Shown here in pieces: positions 50,822-64,000 of a DNA stretch of 64,000 nt (positions are counted from its first letter, which is position 1; the number at the start of each line of letters is the position of its first letter). The position numbers and the translations under genes are program-made. The notes under the pieces are model-generated. The model did no database searches and was not told the DNA's origin. It was given only the letters and a program-made list of their open reading frames with translations. Source of the stretch: a virus (Duplodnaviria; Caudoviricetes); IMG/VR virus record IMGVR_UViG_3300031669_005479, positions 128,001-192,000 of that record. The stretch is one strand, 5' to 3'.

Positions 50822-50896
50822 CTAGGTGTTCCGCAGATGGATATACGGGCGTGCCTTGGAAGCACGTGTTCGCAGGTTCGAATCCTGCTACCTAGA
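50822..50896 (+). tRNA. trnP: tRNA-Pro(UGG), copy 1
   Basis: Acceptor CTAGGTG/TACCTAG, anticodon arm CGTGC-CTTGGAA-GCACG, TTCGAAT loop. Confidence 0.85.
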
Positions 50897-50981
50897 GGTA
50901 ATCAAATTAAACTACCTGCACGTGGTGATTACTGCACGGTTGAATAAACCGACCAAATGTTTAATGTATAATATATATGGT

Positions 50982-51491
50982 ATGAGTAATATAAGCGATA
51001 TACTTAAAGAAGCAAAAAGTAAAGGATATTATGCCGATGAATATGGTAAAATTTATTCAGCGAAGAAATTAATTTCATTACGAAATAGAGATAATCGGTT
51101 AAATTTTACCATAAGATATTATGGAAAAAGAGTTACAATTGCCGTACATAAGTATGTTGCATATTTAAAATATGGTGATAAAATTTTTGATGATGGTATT
51201 GAAGTAAGACATTTAAATGGAAATTCGCTAGATAATTCATATGAAAATATTTTAATTGGAACTCATAGCGATAATATGCTTGATATTCCAAAAAATGTTA
51301 GAATAAAAAAAGCAATATCAGCATCAAGTAAAAATAGAAAATTTGGTGATGATATCATTAAGAATATTATGAATGATAAAAATAATGGTATGTCATATAG
51401 TAAATTATGTGAAAAATATAATACAAGTAAATCGACATTAAGTTATTTATTTAATAATGCGTATTATAGTGGTGCTAGAAATATAGAGTAG
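50982..51491 (+). CDS. HNH homing endonuclease
   Basis: VHKYVA...EVRHLNGNSLDNSYENILIGTHSDN; stop overlaps the next tRNA; start could be 50964. Confidence 0.8.
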   Translation: MSNISDILKEAKSKGYYADEYGKIYSAKKLISLRNRDNRLNFTIRYYGKRVTIAVHKYVAYLKYGDKIFDDGIEVRHLNGNSLDNSYENILIGTHSDNMLDIPKNVRIKKAISASSKNRKFGDDIIKNIMNDKNNGMSYSKLCEKYNTSKSTLSYLFNNAYYSGARNIE

Positions 51492-51557
51492 TAGCGCAGT
51501 TGGAAGCGTACCGCATTTGGGATGCGGGGGTCGTGAGTTCGAGTCTCACTTACTCTA
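51485..51557 (+). tRNA. trnP: tRNA-Pro(UGG), copy 2
   Basis: Acceptor AGAGTAG/TTACTCT, CCGCA-TTTGGGA-TGCGG, GTGAG-TTCGAGT-CTCAC. Confidence 0.9.
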
Positions 51558-51565
51558 CTAAACAT

Positions 51566-51637
51566 GGTGATTGAAGCATTAAAGTGATGCGTCAGACTGT
51601 GAATCTGAAGAAGACGGGTCAGTACCGTCCTTTCACC
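51566..51637 (+). tRNA. trnH: tRNA-His(GUG), atypical
   Basis: TCAGA-CTGTGAA-TCTGA, G-1/C73; two U.U mismatches in the acceptor stem and a non-canonical T loop GTCAGTA. Confidence 0.65.
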
Positions 51638-51642
51638 CAAAT

Positions 51643-51707
51643 ATCGATTCTACAATCGATAAATATATATTATCGGTTGTAGAATCGATAAATATATATT
51701 TATCGAT
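51643..51707. repeat. Nested inverted repeats (20-bp hairpin + perfect 24-bp palindrome)
   Basis: ATCGATTCTACAATCGATAA-atatata-TTATCGGTTGTAGAATCGAT overlapping ATCGATAAATATATATTTATCGAT. Confidence 0.85.
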
Positions 51708-51870
51708 GTGATAGACGGCAAATGAGTTGGTGTTAAAGAAGACATAACCAAAGATAAGTTAAATAATCTTAGAGTAGATGTAATGCAGAAGATACGAAAA
51801 GATATTGTAGATGGTAAATGTCAATTATTTACATACGAAAGAAAATTTTATTAATTAATTAATATAATAC

Positions 51871-51944
51871 TGTCTCGTGGCGCAATCGGCTAACGCTCCT
51901 GACTCTGAATCAGATGACTACGGGTTCGAATCCTGTCGAGACAA
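51871..51944 (+). tRNA. trnQ: tRNA-Gln(CUG)
   Basis: TGTCTCG/CGAGACA acceptor, loop CTCTGAA; C27.A43 mismatch. Confidence 0.85.
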
Positions 51945-52006
51945 CAATAGTATTTTTTTGCAAAAAGTAGCATTTTTCGATACTTTCCGCAAAATATAAC
52001 TAATAT

Positions 52007-52091
52007 TGACCTCTGGTGGAATTGGCTAAACACAACTGTCTTTGAAGCAGTCGTCCGTAAGGATTTGCAAGTTCGAGTCTTGCGAGGTCAA
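52007..52091 (+). tRNA. tRNA with UUG (Gln) anticodon and long variable arm
   Basis: TGACCTC/GAGGTCA, ACTGT-CTTTGAA-GCAGT, variable arm TCC-GTAA-GGA. Confidence 0.8.
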
Positions 52092-52222
52092 CAAAAATAG
52101 GGTAGAATGGTGAGACAGCTTCCCCTCGGACTAAAGGCATCAGGATTTGACGATGCCGATGTGAAGCATAGGTCAAGCAATGCATTGACTTAGGTCGAAC
52201 CAAGAAAATCGAGGTTATTTAT

Positions 52223-52295
52223 TGCTATGTAGTGTAATGGTTTAGCACAAGTGACTTTGAATCACTTAGTTACAGTTCGAATCTGTACATAGCAA
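52223..52295 (+). tRNA. trnQ: tRNA-Gln(UUG), canonical
   Basis: TGCTATG/CATAGCA, AGTGA-CTTTGAA-TCACT. Confidence 0.9.
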
Positions 52296-52304
52296 CTATT
52301 TTTA

Positions 52305-52386
52305 ATGTGGAAGTTAAAAAAATTCATTATTTTTACAAAAACATTATGTGGAAGTTAAAAAAATTCATTATTTTTACAAAAACATT
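52305..52386 (+). repeat. Exact 41-bp tandem duplication
   Basis: ATGTGGAAGTTAAAAAAATTCATTATTTTTACAAAAACATT twice. Confidence 0.9.
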
Positions 52387-52389
52387 ATT

Positions 52390-52773
52390 ATGAAGTATAA
52401 CCTATATCTTGATGACTTCCGTGACCCCATAGATTCTGCATATTATCTTAATAATCCTATTTATGAAACACTTCAATGGATTGTTGTTAGAAATTATGAT
52501 GAATTTATTAAGTGTGTTATAGAAAATAGTATTCCAGAAGTAATATCCTTCGATCATGACTTGGCAGCAACACATTATGACCATCAATCTAATATAGAAT
52601 ACGATGTATTTACAGAAAAAACTGGTTATGATTGTGCTAAATGGTTTATTGATTATGTGATTGATAATAAATCGAAACTACCAAAAACAATACTTATTCA
52701 TTCGATGAATCCTGCTGGAAGTGCTAATATTAAATCGCTATTTGATAGTTATATTAAATCATTAAATCTGTAA
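52390..52773 (+). CDS. Cyclic-phosphate processing receiver-like domain protein
   Basis: LYLDDFRDP...VRNYDEF...ISFDHDL...TGYDCAKW...HSMNPAG..NI; start moved past the duplicated upstream segment. Confidence 0.75.
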   Translation: MKYNLYLDDFRDPIDSAYYLNNPIYETLQWIVVRNYDEFIKCVIENSIPEVISFDHDLAATHYDHQSNIEYDVFTEKTGYDCAKWFIDYVIDNKSKLPKTILIHSMNPAGSANIKSLFDSYIKSLNL

Positions 52774-52825
52774 CAAATTTTAAATGTTTTCGTATAATCA
52801 ACATATTTATATATAAATCGATATT

Positions 52826-53467
52826 ATGAAAAATGGATTAAATGAAAAACAAATACTATTCGAAATGATGGAAAAAATAAATCCAGATTTCAGATATAAT
52901 ACCGATGTCATTGAAGGTGTTGGAGATAAATTTTTATCTAATAAACATATAGTTCCCGATGAATTTGATGAATTCGATAAAACATATTCTGCAACACAGA
53001 ATGATAAAAATGGTGTTGTTTATCAGGAAGGTAATTGGCAGATATTAAAAAATCCCCAATCATTAACGGGTTTTGGTGCATCAGTCAGAGGAATCATTAT
53101 GGATAATGGTGATTTATATCTTGAATCTCATGCAAAAAAAATTCATAATGATATACTTAAGATTTTAACAGAAATTGGTGTATTTACACAAATGCCACAA
53201 ATAAATTGGGGTATGAGAATTCCCCAAGAGAGTGGGTTTTTAACCGTTCAGAGATATAAAAATTCTCCATATATTGCTATAGGTGAAAGTAATCGAATTA
53301 TATATAAAATCGATAACTACGATAAACTAAAAAAATATTATGATGAATATATTGATAAGGCAAAAATAAAAATGCCAAACATTGAATTTATCGATAAACT
53401 TGTTGGTTCAAAAAGTGTTGTAAATACAAGTGGTGCTAATATTATGAATGAAACCTATTTAAAATAG
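52826..53467 (+). CDS. Late protein with N-terminal KQILFEMMEKINPDF tag
   Basis: ATATTTATA upstream; tag shared. Confidence 0.6.
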   Translation: MKNGLNEKQILFEMMEKINPDFRYNTDVIEGVGDKFLSNKHIVPDEFDEFDKTYSATQNDKNGVVYQEGNWQILKNPQSLTGFGASVRGIIMDNGDLYLESHAKKIHNDILKILTEIGVFTQMPQINWGMRIPQESGFLTVQRYKNSPYIAIGESNRIIYKIDNYDKLKKYYDEYIDKAKIKMPNIEFIDKLVGSKSVVNTSGANIMNETYLK

Positions 53468-53746
53468 TTATTTCATCATCTAATTTCCTAAGTATTTATC
53501 ATTAAAGATATAAACATATTTACAATATAACAGTTAGGACTGTTATGGTTTCGACCAAATTAGGGATGATAAACGTTCGCTACTATTATCATCCCTTTCT
53601 TTATTGTAAAAATTTATCCAAAATTATGCATTAATTATGTTGCTAATATTATTGGTAGATTGATAATAAGATATTTAAAATATTTTTTCTTGTTTTTATA
53701 ATAATTAAATATTTCCTTTGCATTGAAAATTTAAACACACAAAACT

Positions 53747-54649
53747 ATGAAAATTACTATTGATTATCTTAAAAAAATTAGGGCTTGTGATGAAGCAATT
53801 GCTAGGTTTAACAACACACCTGAACTACATTCAGTTAATATTGAAAAATCAACTGAAATTATTGTTGGTGATGTATCATTATTTAATGATATTAATTGGT
53901 TAGTTAATAAGTTAAAAGGTAAACTGCCTGTTAGAAAGTTAACCTATAAAGGTTCTGATGGTTATTGGTCAGAAATGACTTATGATGATAATGGAAATAA
54001 GTTAACATATAAAAATTCTGATGGTTATTGGTTAGAATATACCTATGATGAAAATGGAAAATTGTTAACCACTAAAAATTCTGATGGTTATTGGTTAGAA
54101 TATACCTATGATGATAATGGAAAATTGTTAACCACTAAAAATTCTGATGGTTATTGGGAAGAAAACACCTATGATGATAATGGAAATAAGTTAACACATA
54201 AGAAATCTAATGGTAGTTGGGAAGAAAACACCTATGATGATAATGGAAATAAGTTAACATATAAAAATTCTGATGGTTATTGGGAAGAAAACACCTATGA
54301 TGATAATGGAAATAAGTTAACATATAAAAATTCTAATGGTTATTGGGAAGAAAACACCTATGATGATAATGGAAATAAGTTAACATATAAGAATTCTGAT
54401 GGTTATTGGGAAGAAAACACCTATGATGATAATGGAAATTTGTTAACCACTAAAGATTCTAAAGGTTATTCGTGTGAATATACCTATGATGAAAATGGAA
54501 ATAAATTAACCTATAAGGATTCTAAAGGTTATTCGTGTGAATATACGTATGATGAAAATGGAAATAAATTAACCAATAAGGATTCTAATGACAATATTAC
54601 TGATTACCCTAAATTAAAATATGATTTGACTATTTTTGAAATAAAATAA
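53747..54649 (+). CDS. YD-like tandem-repeat protein (10 x 21 aa)
   Basis: Repeat KLTYKNSDGYWEENTYDDNGN (63 bp). Confidence 0.8.
   Translation: MKITIDYLKKIRACDEAIARFNNTPELHSVNIEKSTEIIVGDVSLFNDINWLVNKLKGKLPVRKLTYKGSDGYWSEMTYDDNGNKLTYKNSDGYWLEYTYDENGKLLTTKNSDGYWLEYTYDDNGKLLTTKNSDGYWEENTYDDNGNKLTHKKSNGSWEENTYDDNGNKLTYKNSDGYWEENTYDDNGNKLTYKNSNGYWEENTYDDNGNKLTYKNSDGYWEENTYDDNGNLLTTKDSKGYSCEYTYDENGNKLTYKDSKGYSCEYTYDENGNKLTNKDSNDNITDYPKLKYDLTIFEIK
53936..54591 (+). repeat. 63-bp coding tandem repeat, about 10.4 copies
   Basis: Directly visible; several copies near-identical. Confidence 0.9.
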
Positions 54650-54710
54650 TTCTAATAACTAATTGAGAATTAAGTATTTGAGAAATATATTGAAAATATT
54701 TTAAAAATAG

Positions 54711-54741
54711 TTTGCAATTATTGTAACATTTTATACCTTTG
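54711..54741 (+). promoter_or_regulatory. Bacteroidota sigma-A-type promoter for tRNA cluster 2
   Basis: TTTG-N19-TACCTTTG. Confidence 0.75.
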
Positions 54742-54789
54742 CATCGTATTTAGATAGAAAGAAACAAAAACAATTTAAATTATAAAACA

Positions 54790-54879
54790 ATGAAAAATTT
54801 ACTCGACATATTAATGGCAACTTTGGTGGAAGTCCTATTATGGGCAGACGCAGAGGATAAATTACGCACAGTCGGGTAA
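54790..54879 (+). CDS. Putative attenuator leader peptide (MKNLLDILMATLVEVLLWADAEDKLRTVG)
   Basis: 19 of 29 codons are L/D/A/V/E/W, the amino acids of the downstream tRNAs; ends in AGTCGGGT, a copy of the terminator 3' arm. Confidence 0.8.
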   Translation: MKNLLDILMATLVEVLLWADAEDKLRTVG

Positions 54880-54908
54880 TGTATATTACACACTCCTTTC
54901 TTAATAAG

Positions 54909-54943
54909 AAAAACCCGACAAACGAAAGTAAGTCGGGTTTTTT
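54909..54943 (+). terminator. Attenuator terminator 2
   Basis: AAAAACCCGAC-aaacgaaagtaa-GTCGGGTTTTTT between the leader and tRNA-Asp. Confidence 0.85.
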
Positions 54944-54983
54944 GATTTTTAGGTTGGATGTTCTTTGACATGTTGGAAATTTT

Positions 54984-55060
54984 GGTGATGTAGTTCAGTT
55001 GGCTAGAATGGGGCACTGTCTATGCTCAGGTCGAGGGTTCGAGTCCCTTCATCACCGCCA
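54984..55060 (+). tRNA. trnD: tRNA-Asp(GUC), CCA encoded
   Basis: GGTGATG/CATCACC, GGGCA-CTGTCTA-TGCTC, G73, CCA. Confidence 0.92.
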
Positions 55061-55076
55061 AATTATAATATTAAAT

Positions 55077-55160
55077 GCGGCGTTATACAAGTGGCTAAAG
55101 TGGCAAGACCTTCAATCTTGTATCGAAAGATTTCGAGGGGTTCGAATCCCCCACGCCGTA
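55077..55160 (+). tRNA. tRNA with UUC (Glu) anticodon, C33 and long variable arm
   Basis: GCGGCGT/ACGCCGT, CAAGA-CCTTCAA-TCTTG, variable arm ATC-GAAA-GAT, Tyr-like D loop AAGTGGCTAAA. Confidence 0.7.
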
Positions 55161-55255
55161 CGAAGTTCAATATGAAATATAGTGGTTTCAGAGGTTTGTT
55201 CATATTGAGGTTTAGTAATTCCAAGGTCGATAATAATGACCAAAAATCTCGCCAT

Positions 55256-55327
55256 GCTCGATTCGTCTAACGATTAGGACAAATGGTTTTCGTCCATTAA
55301 ATGAGGGTTTGATTCCCTCATCGAGTA
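55256..55327 (+). tRNA. trnE: tRNA-Glu(UUC)
   Basis: GCTCGAT/ATCGAGT, AATGG-TTTTCGT-CCATT. Confidence 0.85.
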
Positions 55328-55335
55328 CAATAATT

Positions 55336-55406
55336 TGGGGAATTGATGTAATGGTAGCGTGTTTGGCCTACATCCAAAACGAAATAGTTCGATTCTATTA
55401 TTCCCT
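55336..55406 (+). tRNA. trnV: tRNA-Val(UAC), atypical (C33, U1.U72)
   Basis: TTTGG-CCTACAT-CCAAA, AATAG-TTCGATT-CTATT. Confidence 0.75.
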
Positions 55407-55418
55407 ACAAAATAAATT

Positions 55419-55493
55419 GCGAGTGTAGCCGAATGGTTAATAGGCAACTGTTTTAGAAACAGAAATTTGCGGGTTCGACTCCCGCCATTCGCA
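55419..55493 (+). tRNA. tRNA with UAG (Leu) anticodon and short variable loop
   Basis: GCGAGTG/CATTCGC, (A)CTGT-TTTAGAA-ACAG(A), 5-nt variable region, A73. Confidence 0.75.
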
Positions 55494-55516
55494 CAAAGGG
55501 TTAAAAACAAAACTAT

Positions 55517-55603
55517 GGGGATGTGATGAAATTGGCGATACATGCCAGACTTAGAATCTGGTGCTAATAAACTGGCGTGTGGGTTCGAATCCCACCATCC
55601 TCA
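55517..55603 (+). tRNA. trnL: tRNA-Leu(UAG), canonical class II
   Basis: GGGGATG/CATCCTC, CCAGA-CTTAGAA-TCTGG, long variable arm, A73. Confidence 0.92.
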
Positions 55604-55716
55604 CGTTTAGACCGTTTAGAATTTTTATTAGTAATGAAAATGCTAGTAAACATAAAAGTTGTTCAATCACATTGGATGAATTATTGACGAGAATTAAAAT
55701 GTGGAATGTGAAATAT

Positions 55717-55791
55717 GGGGCGTTAACTCAGTCTGCCTAGAGTGCTGCACTTGCAATGCAGAGGTCATCGGTTGAAATCCGATACGTTCCA
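55717..55791 (+). tRNA. trnA: tRNA-Ala(UGC)
   Basis: GGGGCGT/ACGTTCC with G3.U70, CTGCA-CTTGCAA-TGCAG. Confidence 0.92.
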
Positions 55792-55848
55792 CGAGTAGAC
55801 CGTTTTAGAATTTTTTATTGACTAAGAGTAACGTAGAAAAATTCATAT

Positions 55849-55922
55849 GGCTCTGTAGCCGAACTGGAATAGGCAACTGTTTTAAAATCAGAAATTTGTG
55901 GGTTCGAGTCCCACCAGAGCTA
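55849..55922 (+). tRNA. tRNA with UAA (Leu) anticodon and short variable loop
   Basis: GGCTCTG/CAGAGCT; body paralogous to the 55419 tRNA; weak anticodon stem (CTG/CAG). Confidence 0.7.
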
Positions 55923-56081
55923 CAAATCGTCTGGAGATTCCAGACAAAGTTTTTATAGTAAAATTTATTATTGTTTAATGAATGAAATTGAGTTACATGT
56001 TATTGATACTACAGAACAAAAATGTTTTAAAAAATGTATCTCTGAAAAGTATTTAAATATGATTATTAATATCATTAATAC

Positions 56082-56164
56082 ACGTCCGTAGGCATTGGTA
56101 AGCCAAACAGTCTCCAAAACTGCAACCCGAAAGGGTCTTGCTCGTTCGAATCGAGCTGGACGTG
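56082..56164 (+). tRNA. trnW: tRNA-Trp(CCA) with long variable arm and 4-bp anticodon stem
   Basis: ACGTCCG/TGGACGT, G73, (A)CAGT-CTCCAAA-ACTG(C), variable arm ACCC-GAAA-GGGT. Confidence 0.82.
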
Positions 56165-56257
56165 CTAATTTTTATAAATTTTGTAACATTTTGAATAGAG
56201 TATACGTATCATAAGAATCATTTAGTATTTTATTAATTTTGTAAAATTTATAAAGTT

Positions 56258-56995
56258 ATGTATATTATTGCAAAGAAAAACGAAAAGGATTATTATGATG
56301 GTGTTGTTGGTACCGTAGGTATTGATAAAACAATTGTGTATGAACGTAATATTATTGATGTCGAAAACAATAAAATTCCACCATTATTTAAAGAAGCAAC
56401 ATTATCCAATTTCGATAATATTAAAAATAATTACTTTCATCAACTACATGACTTCAGAATTGATAAAATCCATGAAAATAAATTTCCATACGATTCATAC
56501 TTTATTGTAGGATTTTGTGGAAAACTATATGTGGGTTGGAAACTTTATAGTTTTAAAAACATCAATAACGATGTGCTTATTACAATTACGTATGATTTGG
56601 ATTATATCTTTGAACTTTTTGACGAAAAAAATCGATTTGGTAATAGTCTATATGATATTGTTAGTTATATTTTAAACTATGATGCCATCGATTTGTTTAG
56701 AGAATTAAATACACCAATTTTCATATATGATTATGATAGTAATGTGAAAAATATTAGTGGTTATTGTCGTGAATATCATAATTCAAAATTCATTATAAAT
56801 CCACTATTAAAAAACTATGAATTTTATAAAAAATTTGATAGTTTTCAAACATTTCAAGAAATAAGTATGTTTATTGGTGGAGTGTTAGGTAGTAAAGAAA
56901 AGAAAATTATTGAAGTTGAGGACAAGTATAAAATTGCACAACATGGCTTTAATAAATGGAGTTTTAGAAAAGAACCTAAAGATAAATCGATATAA
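56258..56995 (+). CDS. Hypothetical protein
   Basis: Intact 245-aa ORF. Confidence 0.6.
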   Translation: MYIIAKKNEKDYYDGVVGTVGIDKTIVYERNIIDVENNKIPPLFKEATLSNFDNIKNNYFHQLHDFRIDKIHENKFPYDSYFIVGFCGKLYVGWKLYSFKNINNDVLITITYDLDYIFELFDEKNRFGNSLYDIVSYILNYDAIDLFRELNTPIFIYDYDSNVKNISGYCREYHNSKFIINPLLKNYEFYKKFDSFQTFQEISMFIGGVLGSKEKKIIEVEDKYKIAQHGFNKWSFRKEPKDKSI

Positions 56996-57101
56996 TTTCA
57001 ATATACATGAATACTGGTATTGTAAGGAAAAATTGTCGTTACTTTTGAAATGTTAAAATTTTGTTGTTTATTTGTAACCATAAATTAATAAATATTGTGC
57101 T

Positions 57102-57539
57102 ATGTTTAATCCAGAGAGAAAAAGGGAAGAATTTGAAATAGAATTACATAATTTTATTAATTCATCTGAAGGAGATGCTTACTTTGAGAATGAAAGAATC
57201 AAAGAAGAGTTAAAACAAATTCGTTACAAACATTTTGAAAAATTTCTTGAATCAAACGATTTTGATAAACTCATGTATCGTTTAATTCTTGAACATGATG
57301 ATGAGTGGAGAGAAAAATGTTGGCATAATGGATGTGAGCCATATCCAAATAATAAATTAGGATTTGTTATTGATTATGTTACAAATAATTTTGATACCAT
57401 AGATGTTCCACAACTTCAAAATTCTTTTAATACACAAATTTGGTTTTTTAAGGGATATTATTTTAGAATAACGTTTGGACAGGGAGTTGTCTTTGATTTG
57501 TATAACGGAGACGATTTTAGTCATTTGTTACATGCATAA
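57102..57539 (+). CDS. Hypothetical protein
   Basis: Intact ORF with promoter-like TATTTG upstream. Confidence 0.55.
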   Translation: MFNPERKREEFEIELHNFINSSEGDAYFENERIKEELKQIRYKHFEKFLESNDFDKLMYRLILEHDDEWREKCWHNGCEPYPNNKLGFVIDYVTNNFDTIDVPQLQNSFNTQIWFFKGYYFRITFGQGVVFDLYNGDDFSHLLHA

Positions 57540-57639
57540 TTATTTGGCGAAGTGATGAATTGGTGGGAGGTAGAACTTGGTGGAGTTAATAAAGGTGCAG
57601 AAAGATTACGTGCTAAAACAGAAATTAAAAAAGAATTAA

Positions 57640-57831
57640 ATGAGTTTACTTTTTAGAAATTGGCTCGATGAAGGTTATTATAAAGAAGATGGTTATGATG
57701 ATTTAACTCGAATTGAAGACCGTGCAGATATTCTTCGTGCGCAAAAGGAAAACACACTATATCAAAATGATGGTATGACTACCACAAAAGTAAATGATGG
57801 TGAAAATATTGAATTATGGCAAAAGCAATAA
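57640..57831 (+). CDS. Small hypothetical protein
   Basis: ORF track; plausible codon usage, unverified. Confidence 0.35.
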   Translation: MSLLFRNWLDEGYYKEDGYDDLTRIEDRADILRAQKENTLYQNDGMTTTKVNDGENIELWQKQ

Positions 57832-57941
57832 AAAACAATAAATCTATACCCAAAGAGGATGATTGTAAATGTGGTAAATCTGTTAAAATAACACAAAGAA
57901 AAAATATTGGATATAAAAAAACAATTAAAAAAAGAATATAG

Positions 57942-58016
57942 CCCCTAGTGACGTAACTTGGCAAACGTGTTCGGCTCAAACCCGAAATTTTGTGGGTTCG
58001 AATCCCACTTAGGGGA
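57942..58016 (+). tRNA. tRNA with CAA (Leu) anticodon and short variable loop
   Basis: CCCCTAG/TTAGGGG, TTCGG-CTCAAAC-CCGAA, 5-nt variable region, A73. Confidence 0.8.
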
Positions 58017-58091
58017 CAACTAATTTAAATTTAATGTTATGAAAAAAATGTATGAAGTTTTGTAAATTGCTCTAATGCAATTGCAAAACAA

Positions 58092-58373
58092 ATGAAAAGT
58101 AAAAAAATCGTGGACACTACCACAAATCGTGGCGAATTCAATCGTGCTTATAAATCGTATCTTGAACATGATGGTAAAATTCGTTGCACTTATTGTTCAT
58201 ATCATCGTGGCGAAAATAAAACCACTCATATGTATTGGGGTGATGATGAGCATATTAAATACCCTAACTGGAAATTAGTTTCAAAGTATTCTAAACGGTG
58301 GATGAAAAAACCGATGAGAATGATTGAACGCACCAATCGATGGGGTAATAATTACGTTGAGATTAAATTTTAG
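58092..58373 (+). CDS. Small basic hypothetical protein with CxxC
   Basis: RCTYCSYHRGEN motif. Confidence 0.55.
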   Translation: MKSKKIVDTTTNRGEFNRAYKSYLEHDGKIRCTYCSYHRGENKTTHMYWGDDEHIKYPNWKLVSKYSKRWMKKPMRMIERTNRWGNNYVEIKF

Positions 58374-58382
58374 ATGCTCTTT

Positions 58383-58453
58383 GGCGACATGGTATAAAGG
58401 TAGAACACCTCTCTCATAAGGAGTTGATACGGGTTCGATTCCCGTTGTCGCTA
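58383..58453 (+). tRNA. tRNA with CAU anticodon (elongator Met or Ile2)
   Basis: GGCGACA/TGTCGCT, loop CTCATAA, ACGGG-TTCGATT-CCCGT; followed by the perfect palindrome ATCCCCTCGAATTCGAGGGGAT. Confidence 0.8.
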
Positions 58454-61254: not shown

Positions 61255-61446
61255 ATGATGAAAGAAAGATATATGATTGTGAGAATAGTGAATATTCTTG
61301 CAGAAATGAAAGATAATGGTTCGATGATAACTGAACCATGTTATCAAATAGTTGATAAAGATTATGAGACACCAGATTCTGCTTATAATGTTAAAGAAAA
61401 TTATAGAGAACCGAAACACTATATCGTTGTACAATATTGGTGCTAA
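61255..61446 (+). CDS. Small hypothetical protein; stop lies inside attC-like site 1
   Basis: TAA within TGCTAAC. Confidence 0.55.
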   Translation: MMKERYMIVRIVNILAEMKDNGSMITEPCYQIVDKDYETPDSAYNVKENYREPKHYIVVQYWC

Positions 61447-61569
61447 CGTCAAATGTATGGTTAGTGGCGAATTAGAAACCACAAACCTATCAAACTGAAC
61501 AAAAGTAAGTAGATAAAACAAATGTTAAACCACACACAAAACCGCCATTAACTATACATATTGTTAGGC
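61441..61569 (+). other. attC-like site 1
   Basis: TGCTAAC gtcaa ATGTATGGTTAGTGGCG ... CGCCATTAACTATACAT att GTTAGGC. Confidence 0.8.
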
Positions 61570-61594
61570 GTATGTGCTTTAAAATCATAAAAAT

Positions 61595-62014
61595 ATGAAA
61601 TACGAATTAAGACATCATTCATATAAACCAACTTTAGGAGGTAAAAGTGTTCTGTCGAATAAAACAATAAACGACCTTGGTGAAAGTGCATTATATTACG
61701 TAGGAACATTTAGTGAGTATAATCCATTGTATTTGGGAAACAATTCATTATTATATATAAGAAAAAACTGGACAACAGATGGGAATATACTGCACAAGAT
61801 TAACTTAAAAGGATTAAAATTTAAAGGCGGAATTAATCATTCTGGTTCTGGTATTTGCACTCATGGAGGATTCCAATTAACTAAACAAGATTTATTAAGA
61901 ATTGCTAATGCTATGGATGAAACAGATACCCTTGTTTTATCTGAAATCATACAAAAGACAGAGGAAGGAATTAAAATGTTCAAAGATGGACTAATAGAGG
62001 TTGTAGGTTCTTAG
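61595..62014 (+). CDS. Cassette A hypothetical protein
   Basis: 139-aa ORF between sites 1 and 2. Confidence 0.6.
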   Translation: MKYELRHHSYKPTLGGKSVLSNKTINDLGESALYYVGTFSEYNPLYLGNNSLLYIRKNWTTDGNILHKINLKGLKFKGGINHSGSGICTHGGFQLTKQDLLRIANAMDETDTLVLSEIIQKTEEGIKMFKDGLIEVVGS

Positions 62015-62020
62015 CATTAC

Positions 62021-62113
62021 GCCTAACGATTGGGTATATACGAAGTACCCTAACTACAAACTTAAAAATTAGTACAAACCTTAATAGGGTATTTCGTATA
62101 TACCTTGTTAGCA
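62021..62113 (+). other. attC-like site 2
   Basis: GCCTAAC gattg GGTATATACGAAGTACCCT ... AGGGTATTTCGTATATACC tt GTTAGCA. Confidence 0.85.
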
Positions 62114-62126
62114 AATCGTAAAAATT

Positions 62127-62267
62127 ATGCCAAGAGAACCACTACCATTAAAAAGAGAACATAAAGGCGATGTAACAATAAACATCGCAGATATATTTAG
62201 AAATCCTGAAATGCAAAAAGAAGCTATAAAAGGTTGCAAAAAACTTAAACCACGTAAACGTAAATAA
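62127..62267 (+). CDS. Cassette B small basic protein (46 aa)
   Basis: Manual ORF MPREPLPLKREHKGDVTINIADIFRNPEMQKEAIKGCKKLKPRKRK. Confidence 0.55.
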   Translation: MPREPLPLKREHKGDVTINIADIFRNPEMQKEAIKGCKKLKPRKRK

Positions 62268-62277
62268 TTTATATGTT

Positions 62278-62397
62278 TGCTAACGGTTTTAATATAAAAC
62301 GTTGCAACATAAAGGTAAATACATGTAACAAAACTTGAAATTAAACGTATAATATAATAGAAACCACAACAGCAATGTTTTATATTTGTTGTTATAA
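62278..62397 (+). other. attC-like site 3
   Basis: TGCTAAC ggtttt AATATAAAACGTTGC ... GCAATGTTTTATATT tgtt GTTATAA. Confidence 0.8.
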
Positions 62398-62424
62398 ACA
62401 GTTTCATCATTTAATTTTTTTATT

Positions 62425-62589
62425 ATGAAAGAAGATAAAGTAATAAAAGCAATTGAAATATACATAAGAGAAACGGGTAATAAGTATGGTATAAGTTTAA
62501 TTAAAAAATTAAATGATTACATATACCAAATAAATGACCGAGAAATAAATATAAACACAAACTCTATTGGATACACAGATATTGAGTGA
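62425..62589 (+). CDS. Cassette C small protein (54 aa)
   Basis: Manual ORF MKEDKVIKAIEIYIRETG...GYTDIE. Confidence 0.55.
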   Translation: MKEDKVIKAIEIYIRETGNKYGISLIKKLNDYIYQINDREININTNSIGYTDIE

Positions 62590-62595
62590 AATTGT

Positions 62596-62717
62596 TTATA
62601 ACGTTGATTGTATGGCACGTTGCCACTACTAAGTTTAATTTGAAAAACAAAATATTATGATTACAGAAATAGAAAAATTGAAAAAACTACAGCAATGTGC
62701 TATACAATGTGTTATGG
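62596..62717 (+). other. attC-like site 4
   Basis: TTATAAC gttg ATTGTATGGCACGTTGC ... GCAATGTGCTATACAAT gt GTTATGG. Confidence 0.85.
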
Positions 62718-62965
62718 CACGTACTTCTGATGCTGAATTAGCTACAAGAGCGACACGAGTTGGAGAGCTTCATTGTTTGCACATAGCAGCAACTATGAAT
62801 ATAGAAGAAACTGCCAAAAGCTTAACACAAATACTTGAATACAAACAAGAACTCGCAAAAGAGATGCTGCGGTGTTCGGACGAAAAAGCAACCGACCAAT
62901 TAGCGGATGCAATTACATATAGTGACGAAATGATTAAAAAGGTGCTTGGTATGTATGTGCCATAA
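62657..62965 (+). CDS. Cassette D protein; starts inside site 4 and crosses the GTT core
   Basis: ...QQCAIQC-V-MAR..., GTT = Val codon; stop TAA inside site 5. Confidence 0.65.
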   Translation: MITEIEKLKKLQQCAIQCVMARTSDAELATRATRVGELHCLHIAATMNIEETAKSLTQILEYKQELAKEMLRCSDEKATDQLADAITYSDEMIKKVLGMYVP

Positions 62966-63239
62966 CGGCTGGCGGTATGGTGTCGGTTGCCGTTGAATAA
63001 CCCACCGACTTTGATTAAATGAACAAATGTTGAATAACTTAAATAGTGAGCGATTATGAAACAAGCGGAAATAGTAAAACAAAGATTAAATTACCACTTT
63101 AGAAAAACAGATGGTGGATGGTTAATACCAGAAAATATGCCATTTATGAATGAGTTTTTAAACGAGGTAAGTAAATTATGTGAATTAGCGAACGGTGCTG
63201 AACAAAGAGAAAGCAACTGCAATATACCGCTTGTTAGCA
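62960..63239 (+). other. attC-like site 5 (280 bp, coding loop)
   Basis: CCATAAC ggctg GCGGTATggtgtcgGTTGC ... GCAACtgcaatATACCGC tt GTTAGCA. Confidence 0.75.
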
Positions 63240-63394
63240 CACGTTATTTTGCTAAAATTAAATACTACCCTTGCACGGGTGGAGAACCAATATGGACTGT
63301 TGATGAAGTAGATGCAACAAGTATCGAGCACGCTACCGAATTGTTTAATGATATATGGCACATGAACGCAGAAGTTAAATGCGTGTATAAATAA
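63056..63394 (+). CDS. Cassette E protein; N-terminal half encoded in the site 5 loop
   Basis: ...ESNCNIPL-V-STR..., GTT = Val codon. Confidence 0.65.
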   Translation: MKQAEIVKQRLNYHFRKTDGGWLIPENMPFMNEFLNEVSKLCELANGAEQRESNCNIPLVSTRYFAKIKYYPCTGGEPIWTVDEVDATSIEHATELFNDIWHMNAEVKCVYK

Positions 63395-63398
63395 TGTG

Positions 63399-63492
63399 TG
63401 CTAACGGTTGGGTGTATGAGAAGGTTTGCTTAGATGAACTTTCAAATTACTACTAAACTTTATAGCAAACTTTCTTATACACCTTGTTATGC
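63399..63492 (+). other. attC-like site 6
   Basis: TGCTAAC ggttg GGTGTATGAGAAGGTTTGCT ... AGCAAACTTTCTTATACACC tt GTTATGC. Confidence 0.85.
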
Positions 63493-63606
63493 TCTCGTGC
63501 CGACTTATTAACCACAAATCTTAATTTGAAACACGAAATAAAAACAAAAAGAATTTTAGGGTGGATTTTTTAAAATTGAATATTTATATATATAAAACAA
63601 AAACCT

Positions 63607-64000
63607 ATGAGTGAAGATATACGTAAAATGATTGATAAGGTGAAAAACTTTAAGCAGTTTGTTAATGAGAATGTTGATAATTATTACACATTATATCATG
63701 GAACAAGTAGTGGTAGATTAGATTTTATTAAATCAAAACCAACCAAATTATTTTTAACTGATAGTGAAGATGTTGCAACATATTATGCTGCAAAAGGTGG
63801 TGAAGATTATTTTATGACTAAAGAAATTGAATTTGAAAAACAATATGGCGAAACACCAGATGATTATTTTAACACACAAGAAAATGGCGAACTACCTATG
63901 TTTAAAGCATTATATCCTAAAAATGAAACCCCAATTGTTATAAAATTTCAAATACCTAAAAGTTTAATTAAAAACATTAATGATTTTATTGGATATAAAG
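63607..64000 (+). CDS. Putative ADP-ribosyltransferase-fold protein, truncated by the window end
   Basis: Manual translation MSEDIRKMIDKVKNFKQFVNE...LYHGTS...LFLTDSEDVATYYA; ATATTTATA upstream. Confidence 0.5.
   Translation, partial: MSEDIRKMIDKVKNFKQFVNENVDNYYTLYHGTSSGRLDFIKSKPTKLFLTDSEDVATYYAAKGGEDYFMTKEIEFEKQYGETPDDYFNTQENGELPMFKALYPKNETPIVIKFQIPKSLIKNINDFIGYK

What the first reader, a model, noticed from the sequence alone, without database searches (positions are those of the whole stretch)
61441..63492. Integron-like cassette array in a phage genome
Seen: six hairpin sites of 93-280 bp with consensus TAAC-N8/9-TAT...ATA-N6-GTTA separate small ORFs, three of which stop within or just before the TAAC core. 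Decisively, each left core is complementary to the PREVIOUS site's right core over 9-10 nt (GTTAGGCGTA, GTTAGCAAA, GTTATAAACA, GTTATGGCAC, GTTAGCACAC) but to its own right core over only 4-5 nt. Established: this offset is the signature of cassettes that circularise and insert at G/TT in integrons. The arm geometry and TAT inner box differ from classical attC, and no integrase is in the window. Inference: a phage-borne or host-integrase-driven gene capture and shuffling platform.
Basis: partly seen in the sequence, partly recalled or inferred. Interest (0 to 1): 0.92.

Follow-up and report, generated by a model that had tools for sequence, protein, structure and literature searches.

The report
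Integron-like gene-cassette array in phage
This large phage carries rows of small genes, each preceded by a folded DNA hairpin site, that related phages gain, lose and swap as whole units exactly at a four-base TAAC core; in relatives the rows end at a short Xer-type recombinase gene, so this works like a bacterial integron built from different parts.

Summary
The six sites are real. A seventh site and an orphan core lie just past the window, and a second seven-site array sits at the other end of the 203-kb contig. Each site's left flank is complementary to the previous site's right flank over 9-10 nt, against 4-6 nt to its own.

The same site family occurs in 87 public viral stretches. I counted 329 sites there against 8 in a reversed-sequence control. 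In 14 of 14 relatives examined, an array ends directly at a 266-aa Xer/IntI-like tyrosine recombinase gene. That enzyme lacks the insertion specific to integron integrases.

Mobility is shown for this lineage:
- A 99.5-100% identical relative has one extra unit inserted exactly at the TAAC of site A.
- The site F unit occurs alone in a different genomic context.

The interpretation needs two corrections. The mobile unit is the site plus the gene downstream of it. The crossover lies in the left TAAC core, not at the right-hand G/TT.

This contig and a relative's continuation of the second array lack the recombinase. Both arrays end in a remnant resembling attI, the integron's primary insertion site.

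I found no paper describing this system, although this scan noted it earlier on other DNA. No circles or enzyme activity were seen.

The parts
61255..61446 (+). 63-aa ORF just upstream of the array; its TAA stop lies inside the TAAC core of site A
61444..61566 (+). Site A (123 nt, TAAC to GTTA), the first site of the array. A near-identical relative carries one extra unit inserted right after this TAAC.
61595..62014 (+). 139-aa ORF of unit A; no known family
62024..62110 (+). Site B (87 nt); its left flank TACGCCTAAC is the reverse complement of A's right flank GTTAGGCGTA
   Evidence: z -4.7
62127..62267 (+). 46-aa ORF of unit B
62281..62394 (+). Site C (114 nt). It is a paralogue of a site in the second array (genome 1455-1569, minus strand) and 92.6% identical to a site in the 462-kb phage LR756500.1.
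62425..62589 (+). 54-aa ORF of unit C
62599..62714 (+). Site D (116 nt). The ORF of this unit starts in its loop (62657) and reads through the right arm and core.
62657..62965 (+). 102-aa ORF of unit D; its stop lies inside the TAAC of site E
62963..63236 (+). Site E (274 nt, long-loop subtype with weak arms). The ORF of this unit starts in its loop (63056).
63056..63394 (+). 112-aa ORF of unit E, crossing E's right core
63402..63489 (+). Site F (88 nt); its left arm is the 18-mer found in 87 viral stretches
   Evidence: z -5.5
63402..64000 (+). Unit F: site F, a 117-nt leader and a 155-aa ORF. It runs on to genome 192152, 152 nt past the window end. The whole unit is 99.6% identical in four contigs from other samples, where it stands alone in one and the same different context.

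Best explanation
The region is one of two arrays of mobile gene cassettes in a large phage, probably of Bacteroidota.

Structure of a unit (shown). Each unit starts with a folded hairpin site of the form TAAC-G, left arm, loop of 30-200 nt, right arm, T-GTTA. A short leader and one small gene follow. The unit ends with six bases complementary to the six bases after its own GTTA, and then the next TAAC.

Mechanism (inferred). Units are cut and joined within the left TAAC core by a short Xer/IntI-like tyrosine recombinase. Excision gives a circle in which the unit's two ends pair into a 10-bp stem, a G.T pair and 4-5 further base pairs. The circle re-enters at another TAAC core, or at a simple attI-like site (attI being an integron's primary insertion site): TAAC followed by T..TATATAT, which in relatives lies 50-70 nt upstream of the recombinase gene.

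This phage (shown). It has the arrays and the attI-like ends but no recombinase gene on the contig, so any activity needs an enzyme from the missing third of the genome, a co-infecting phage or the host.

Shown here: the sites, their structure and polarity, the offset rule, unit-wise gain, loss and transfer at TAAC, and the link between array and recombinase in relatives.

Inferred: catalysis by that recombinase, a circular intermediate, and single-stranded folding.
For: Sites and offset rule:
- Both hold in this genome.
- 14 of 17 stem pairs covary.
- In related viral contigs I found 329 sites against 8 in the control.
- Of 234 neighbouring site pairs, 141 have 9 or more complementary nt, and 103 have exactly 10. 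Position 11 is then G.T in 91 of 105, and positions 12-15 pair again.

Recombinase:
- A PF00589 gene is present in 15 of 30 site-bearing records. It lies directly after the last site, on the same strand, in 14 of 14 refetched loci.
- An attI-like TAAC|TA..ATATATAA lies before its start codon.

Unit mobility with breaks at TAAC(G):
- L022/L110, 100% identity over 732 bp.
- L103/L110, 100% over 315 bp, with the downstream site only 44.5% identical.
- L039/L103, 97% over 428 bp.

In this lineage:
- One extra 480-bp unit in a 99.5-100% identical relative, placed exactly after the TAAC of site A.
- Unit F alone elsewhere, bounded GCTAAC...CATAAC|TCGTTTATA.
- L160 and L159 diverge at CCATAACG.

Support for the unit definition: 45 of 139 unit ORFs start inside the site and cross the right core.
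Against: No recombinase gene or remnant lies on this 203-kb contig, in the relative contig that continues the second array, or in the 462-kb LR756500.1.

No circles were observed. The only read data were metagenome contigs, and their joints were short-sided and ambiguous.

The enzyme lacks the I2 region held to be needed for recombining folded single-stranded attC (PMC7790495 abstract).

The strong G.T polarity on the sense strand would also fit an RNA hairpin.

Related loci were retrieved with one site subtype, so the census is biased. Most shared cassettes come from near-identical phages, so independent transfer events number only about six.
Confidence: 0.8

Rival explanations
1. The hairpins are regulatory elements of the transcripts: processing or stabilising stem-loops with a nearby promoter, like the PeSL modules of T4-type phages. 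Gene shuffling would then come from ordinary homologous recombination between these repeats, not from a site-specific enzyme.
For: The sense strand folds better than the antisense strand at every site tested. Non-Watson-Crick oppositions are mostly G.T with fixed polarity, which would be G.U in RNA. Sites are often followed by a conserved 100-190-nt leader shared among phages at 88-92% identity. PeSL modules are a published precedent for shuffling at promoter and stem-loop cassettes (PMC2839356 and PMC4122927, titles; details from my own knowledge).
Against: Breaks fall within a 5-nt core even where the adjoining sites are only 44-66% identical, which is too little homology for homologous recombination. 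Homologous recombination does not explain the 10-nt offset complementarity with a fixed G.T at position 11. A tyrosine recombinase gene and a simple TAAC site sit at the array end in 14 of 14 loci. No T-run follows the hairpins, so they are not intrinsic terminators. A dual role in both recombination and RNA is not excluded.
Confidence: 0.1
2. These are ordinary integron attC sites (a CALIN, that is, a cluster of attC sites with no integrase nearby) picked up from a bacterial integron and served by a host IntI, as reported for some virulent phages.
For: The sites have AAC/GTT cores, imperfect hairpins with unpaired bases and the cassette-end offset, as in integrons. Qi et al. 2023 found CALINs of 2-4 attC sites in virulent phages, and IntI1 recombined five of the six sites they tested (PMC9892861).
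Against: The linked enzyme in relatives is not an IntI. The site lies 5' of its gene and the crossover is at the opposite core. The 7-bp consensus RYYYAAC/GTTRRRY is only partly met: the base before TAAC is A in 62% of sites, and the base after GTTA is T in 62%. The site family is spread through viral contigs with its own recombinase.
Confidence: 0.05
3. The arrays are inert relics in this phage. The sites were once active, but the recombinase is lost and the arrangement is now fixed.
For: There is no recombinase on the contig or at the end of either array. Both attI-like ends are followed by a small unrelated ORF.
Against: A relative that is 99.5-100% identical over the 7 kb compared (the two blocks on either side of the insertion) differs by exactly one unit at site A, which implies recent turnover. 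The offset complementarity is intact in 6 of 6 junctions here. The contig is only about 66% complete.
Confidence: 0.2

Closest known systems
Integrons (IntI integrase, attI, attC-bounded cassettes; sedentary chromosomal integrons)
   Same: Both have arrays of single-gene cassettes separated by imperfect hairpin sites with AAC/GTT cores and variable loops. In both, cassette ends are complementary across the cassette, not within a site. Both have a tyrosine recombinase of the Xer/IntI clade with a SAM_4 N-domain next to the array, and a simple attI-like site by its 5' end. Cassette content is hypervariable and mostly of unknown function.
   Different: The recombinase is 266 aa and lacks the IntI-specific insertion: 34 residues where V. 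cholerae IntI4 has 82. The site lies upstream of its gene and often holds the gene's start. The crossover is at the core on the other side. The genes and the recombinase all point the same way. The paired core is 10 bp flanked by fixed G.T pairs, and the left arm is 3-4 nt longer. The carriers are large phages.
CALINs and attC sites reported in phage genomes (Qi et al. 2023, PMC9892861)
   Same: Both are clusters of attC-type sites without an integrase in virulent phage genomes, one of them a Polaribacter (Bacteroidota) phage.
   Different: The published cases have 2-4 sites, were found with attC models for classical integrons, and were recombined by IntI1. Here a distinct site family forms arrays of up to 14 sites, linked to its own non-IntI recombinase in relatives. 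I did not test whether attC models detect these sites.
PeSL regulatory cassettes of T4-type phages (PMC2839356, PMC4122927)
   Same: Both are stem-loop modules between small accessory genes in variable regions of large phages, and related phages differ by whole modules.
   Different: PeSLs act through homologous recombination between promoter and terminator repeats and have no dedicated recombinase (my own knowledge). Here the breaks sit in a 4-5-nt core, the flanks show the offset rule, and a recombinase gene is linked.
Xer/dif systems and the archaeal XerA recombinase
   Same: They give the closest sequence matches to the recombinase: NCBIfam XerA_Arch at 195 bits and PDB 4a8e at E 4e-37.
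   Different: Xer enzymes act on a single 28-bp duplex dif site to resolve dimers. No dif-like site was seen here, and the enzyme is tied to arrays of long hairpins.

Membership tests
Integron | Integrase of the IntI type, carrying the additional domain (I2 helix region) | tested here: not met
   The recombinases of relatives score below cut-off for TIGR02249 (161 bits against 265) and match in two stretches. Aligned with IntI4 (2a3v), they have 34 residues where IntI4 has 82. This contig has no such gene at all.
Integron | attC-type sites: inverse AAC/GTT cores, an imperfect palindrome with unpaired or extra bases, a variable loop | tested here: met
   TAAC and GTTA are invariant, 14 of 17 pairs covary, and the left arm is 3-4 nt longer in 94% of 274 sites. 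The 7-bp RYYYAAC/GTTRRRY consensus is only partly met.
Integron | Cassette ends are complementary to each other (offset between neighbouring sites) | tested here: met
   6 of 6 junctions in this array have 9-10 nt, and 141 of 234 in related arrays have 9 or more.
Integron | attC lies 3' of the cassette gene, with the crossover at G/TT of the R' core | tested here: not met
   Homology breaks at the left TAAC(G) core. Bodies travel with the upstream site, which is 96-100% identical, while the downstream site is 44-66% identical.
Integron | The integrase gene adjoins the array through an attI site | tested here: inconclusive
   Met in 14 of 14 relatives, but the gene is co-oriented with the cassette genes. 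In this phage only the attI-like sequence is present.
Integron / CALIN | Detection by the curated attC covariance model (IntegronFinder, HattCI) | not testable with these tools
   Rfam gave only tRNAs in the window. The attC model is not available here.
PeSL-type regulatory cassettes | Exchange by homologous recombination between long similar repeats, with no dedicated recombinase | tested here: not met
   Breaks lie at a 5-nt core with 44-66% identity beyond it. A recombinase is linked in relatives.
IS200/IS605 or REP/RAYT hairpin elements | A Y1 HUH transposase | tested here: not met
   No PF01797 in the contig. The flank pattern is an inverted offset, not a target-site pattern.

The most novel reading that the evidence does not exclude
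Large phages of Bacteroidota run their own integron analogue. A short Xer-type recombinase without the I2 helix would recombine folded single-stranded hairpin sites whose active strand is marked by polar G.T pairs. It would move promoter-bearing gene units between phages, and apparently into bacterial chromosomes. If so, integron-type chemistry arose or persists without the domain thought to define it, and phages have a dedicated gene-capture device.
Probability: 0.45. Interest if true: 0.9.

Novelty: new variant of a known kind. Interest (0 to 1): 0.8.

Why it matters
Integrons are the textbook gene-capture device of bacteria, and their integrase's extra domain is held to be what allows recombination of folded single-stranded sites. 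Here the same logic appears in large phages with a different, shorter enzyme, the site on the other side of the gene, and every gene carrying its own start region. The shared logic is hairpin sites, offset cassette ends, an attI-like entry point and hypervariable cargo.

This would explain how variable regions of such phages turn over. It offers a natural test of whether the I2 domain is really required. It also points to hundreds of small unknown genes that selection keeps mobile, which makes them candidates for host take-over or anti-defence functions.

For this window, it explains the small ORFs at the 3' end, and probably why the assembly breaks inside an array.

Tried and rejected
- Rfam at gathering thresholds gave only tRNAs.
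- A Y1 transposase search found nothing.
- Pfam and PHROGs on nine array ORFs and one neighbour gave nothing, apart from a borderline DUF551 hit.
- Public runs: only Logan contigs were available. They break at the sites, the joints listed have 20-45-nt sides, and they probably mix related phages. I take nothing from them about circles or deletions, except one bioreactor contig that carries unit F with the same bounds as found later.
- The lower word shares of runs X2 and X3 turned out to be low coverage of the same phage, not variants.
- I walked out from the second array through exact-protein look-ups hoping to reach a recombinase. The 268-aa ORF past the array end (after the attI-like end and three small ORFs) is not one.
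- I looked by eye for the Bacteroidota promoter consensus TAnnTTTG in loops and leaders and found no convincing match.
- Bacterial genome hits to the 18-mer are mostly short MAG contigs, likely phage DNA. Only one isolate locus (Flavobacterium cheonanense) showed a 43%-identical recombinase next to a site, and I did not pursue it.
- A shufflon-type inversion model was considered and dropped, because all unit ORFs keep one orientation in every array.

Full report
**1. The observation**

The window is bases 128001-192000 of a 202,814-bp linear viral contig, judged about 66% complete. Each runs from an invariant TAAC to an invariant GTTA. The geometry is TAAC-N8/9-TAT on the left and ATA-N6-GTTA on the right.

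The key claim holds exactly. The left flank of B, C, D, E and F is the perfect reverse complement of the previous site's right flank over 10, 9, 10, 10 and 10 nt. The run to a site's own right flank is 4-6 nt (with one coordinate corrected by hand). Random pairings of real flanks reach 9 nt in about 2% of cases, so this is not chance.

Thirteen sites of this genome align to one hairpin of 17 pairs, 14 of which show compensatory double changes.

**2. More of it in the same genome**

The array continues past the window. A seventh site lies at genome 192149-192264. An orphan left core, GCCACATAAC, follows at 192520-192529 and is complementary to that site's right flank.

A second array of seven sites lies on the minus strand at genome 2328 to 39 and runs off the contig start. 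The offset rule holds there too.

A genome-wide scan finds such sites only in these two places.

**3. A widespread family**

The 18-nt left arm of site F has exact matches in 87 stretches of IMG/VR viral contigs. A simple scanner (TAACG...TGTTA plus arm complementarity) finds 329 sites in those loci, against 8 in the reversed sequences. Arrays reach 13 sites in 6 kb there, and 14 sites in one refetched locus (L103), always in one orientation.

Of 234 neighbouring site pairs, 141 show 9 or more nt of offset complementarity, and 103 show exactly 10. Beyond the 10 nt, position 11 is a G facing a T in 91 of 105 cases, never a Watson-Crick pair, and positions 12-15 pair again.

The 462-kb phage LR756500.1 has such an array too.

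**4. The enzyme**

Fifteen of 30 site-bearing viral records encode one strong PF00589 protein. In all 14 refetched loci this gene lies directly after the last site of an array, on the strand of the array and its ORFs.

It is about 266 aa, with Phage_int_SAM_4 and Phage_integrase domains. Its best family matches are archaeal XerA/integron integrase (195 bits, below cut-off) and integron integrase in two stretches (161 bits, below cut-off). Against solved structures it is nearest to XerA 4a8e. Aligned with V. cholerae IntI4 it has 34 residues where IntI4 has 82, so the IntI-specific insertion is absent.

The family is very large in metagenomes and is usually labelled XerD.

**5. Units move, and where they are cut**

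Cassette bodies are hypervariable: 260 bodies fall into 218 families at 75% identity. The informative shared pieces are all bounded by left cores:

- L022/L110: 100% over 732 bp, from TA|TAACGG to CATAAC|.
- L103/L110: 100% over 315 bp, from |ATAACGG to CCTAACG|.
- L039/L103: 97% over 428 bp.

Where a body is shared in different contexts, the upstream site is 96-100% identical and the downstream site 44-66% identical. The unit is therefore the site plus the downstream body, and the crossover lies within (A)TAACG.

This fits the gene layout. In 45 of 139 non-redundant units the longest ORF starts inside the site and reads through the right core. In 95 of 139 the stop lies in, or within 15 nt before, the next TAAC. 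In the window, the ORFs of units D and E start in the loops.

**6. Evidence in this phage's own lineage**

- An ENA contig (L149) matches the region at 99.5-100% identity but carries one extra 480-bp unit: a site and a 111-aa ORF ending GCACATAAC. It is inserted exactly after the TAAC that opens site A.
- The unit of site F, from GCTAAC to the TAAC of site G (755 bp), is 99.6% identical in four contigs from other samples. There it stands alone in the same foreign context each time, flanked upstream by unrelated sequence and downstream by TAAC|TCGTTTATAACC. On the one contig long enough to show neighbours (L150), it lies next to transporter and protease genes.
- Contigs that continue the second array (L160, L161) share a 69-aa unit with another contig (L159). 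Their homology stops at CCATAACG.

**7. The entry site**

In relatives, the last body ends in N6'TAAC and is followed at once by TA..ATATATAA..AAGTA, 50-70 nt before the recombinase start codon. This shares TAAC plus a TATA-rich box with the left arm of the sites. I read it as the counterpart of attI, the integron's primary insertion site.

This phage's array ends CATAAC|TCGTTTATATATGCACC. The second array, followed in L161, ends TTTTATAAC|TCGTTTATATATACACC. Both ends are followed by homologous ORFs of about 75 aa, not by a recombinase.

No recombinase or remnant is on the contig.

**8. Strand polarity**

In 274 distinct sites, 52% of all non-Watson-Crick oppositions are G in the left arm facing T in the right arm (575 cases). 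The reverse arrangement occurs 37 times. The left arm is 3 or 4 nt longer in 94% of sites.

The sense strand folds more stably than its complement at all six sites tested. This marks one strand. It fits a strand-selective folded DNA substrate, but it would equally fit an RNA hairpin, so a second role in transcripts is open.

**9. Comparison with what is known**

Viewed from the other strand, the layout is that of an integron: recombinase, attI, then cassettes each ending in their site. The differences are that every gene points towards the recombinase and carries its own start region, and that the enzyme lacks the domain said to have enabled single-strand recombination (PMC7790495, abstract).

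Phage CALINs of 2-4 classical attC sites are published (PMC9892861). PeSL modules of T4-type phages shuffle by homology (PMC2839356).

Six literature searches found nothing on this system. Earlier notes of this scan describe the same system on other DNA and reach the same reading. I consulted them after my own analysis, and they are not independent evidence.

**10. Limits**

- There is no experiment, no circles were seen, and the read data were uninformative.
- The related loci were fished with one site subtype.
- My scanner misses weaker sites; C, D and E score low.
- Independent transfer events number about six.
- The host is inferred only from isolate hits in Bacteroidota and from the lack of Shine-Dalgarno sequences.

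Noticed in passing
window 53936-54590: A 63-bp tandem repeat, 10.4 copies at 89% match, inside the tRNA-rich region. The period is a multiple of three, so it may be a coding repeat.
   Followed up: partly
window 50822-58453: Sixteen tRNA genes lie in about 7.6 kb upstream of the array. Three more lie just downstream of the array, at genome 193080-193320.
   Followed up: no
L002:4586-4819 and L161 about 2730-2950: Both arrays of this lineage end in the same attI-like sequence, followed by homologous ORFs of about 75 aa ending in CPF. These occupy the position that the recombinase holds in other phages. The copy at L002:4586-4816, the only one searched, has no Pfam or PHROG family.
   Followed up: partly
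L150:2880-4204: Unit F stands alone on a 4.2-kb metagenome contig beside an MFS transporter gene and an NfeD/SDH-type protease gene. This is possibly a bacterial chromosome, which would mean cassette transfer between phage and host.
   Followed up: partly
L161:2670-2700: An apparently empty unit: GTTATAAAAT, then 9 nt, then GTTTTATAAC, lying directly between the last site and the attI-like end.
   Followed up: no
L119 (Flavobacterium cheonanense), also L118 and L132: Bacteroidota genomes and MAGs carry the same site 18-mer next to recombinases 41-57% identical to the phage enzyme. In L119 the gene and the site are on opposite strands.
   Followed up: partly
L001 (LR756500.1 394605-406712): This 462-kb uncultured phage has an array of at least five sites obeying the offset rule, but no PF00589 gene anywhere in the record.
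   Followed up: partly
L149:6954-8468 (= genome about 194.6 kb onward): The ribonucleotide reductase large subunit downstream of the array carries intein and LAGLIDADG homing-endonuclease domains.
   Followed up: no
contig ends, genome 1-130: The contig starts inside the second array, 38 nt after a site. Public contigs also break at the sites, so repeated sites or population variation probably ended the assembly here.
   Followed up: partly
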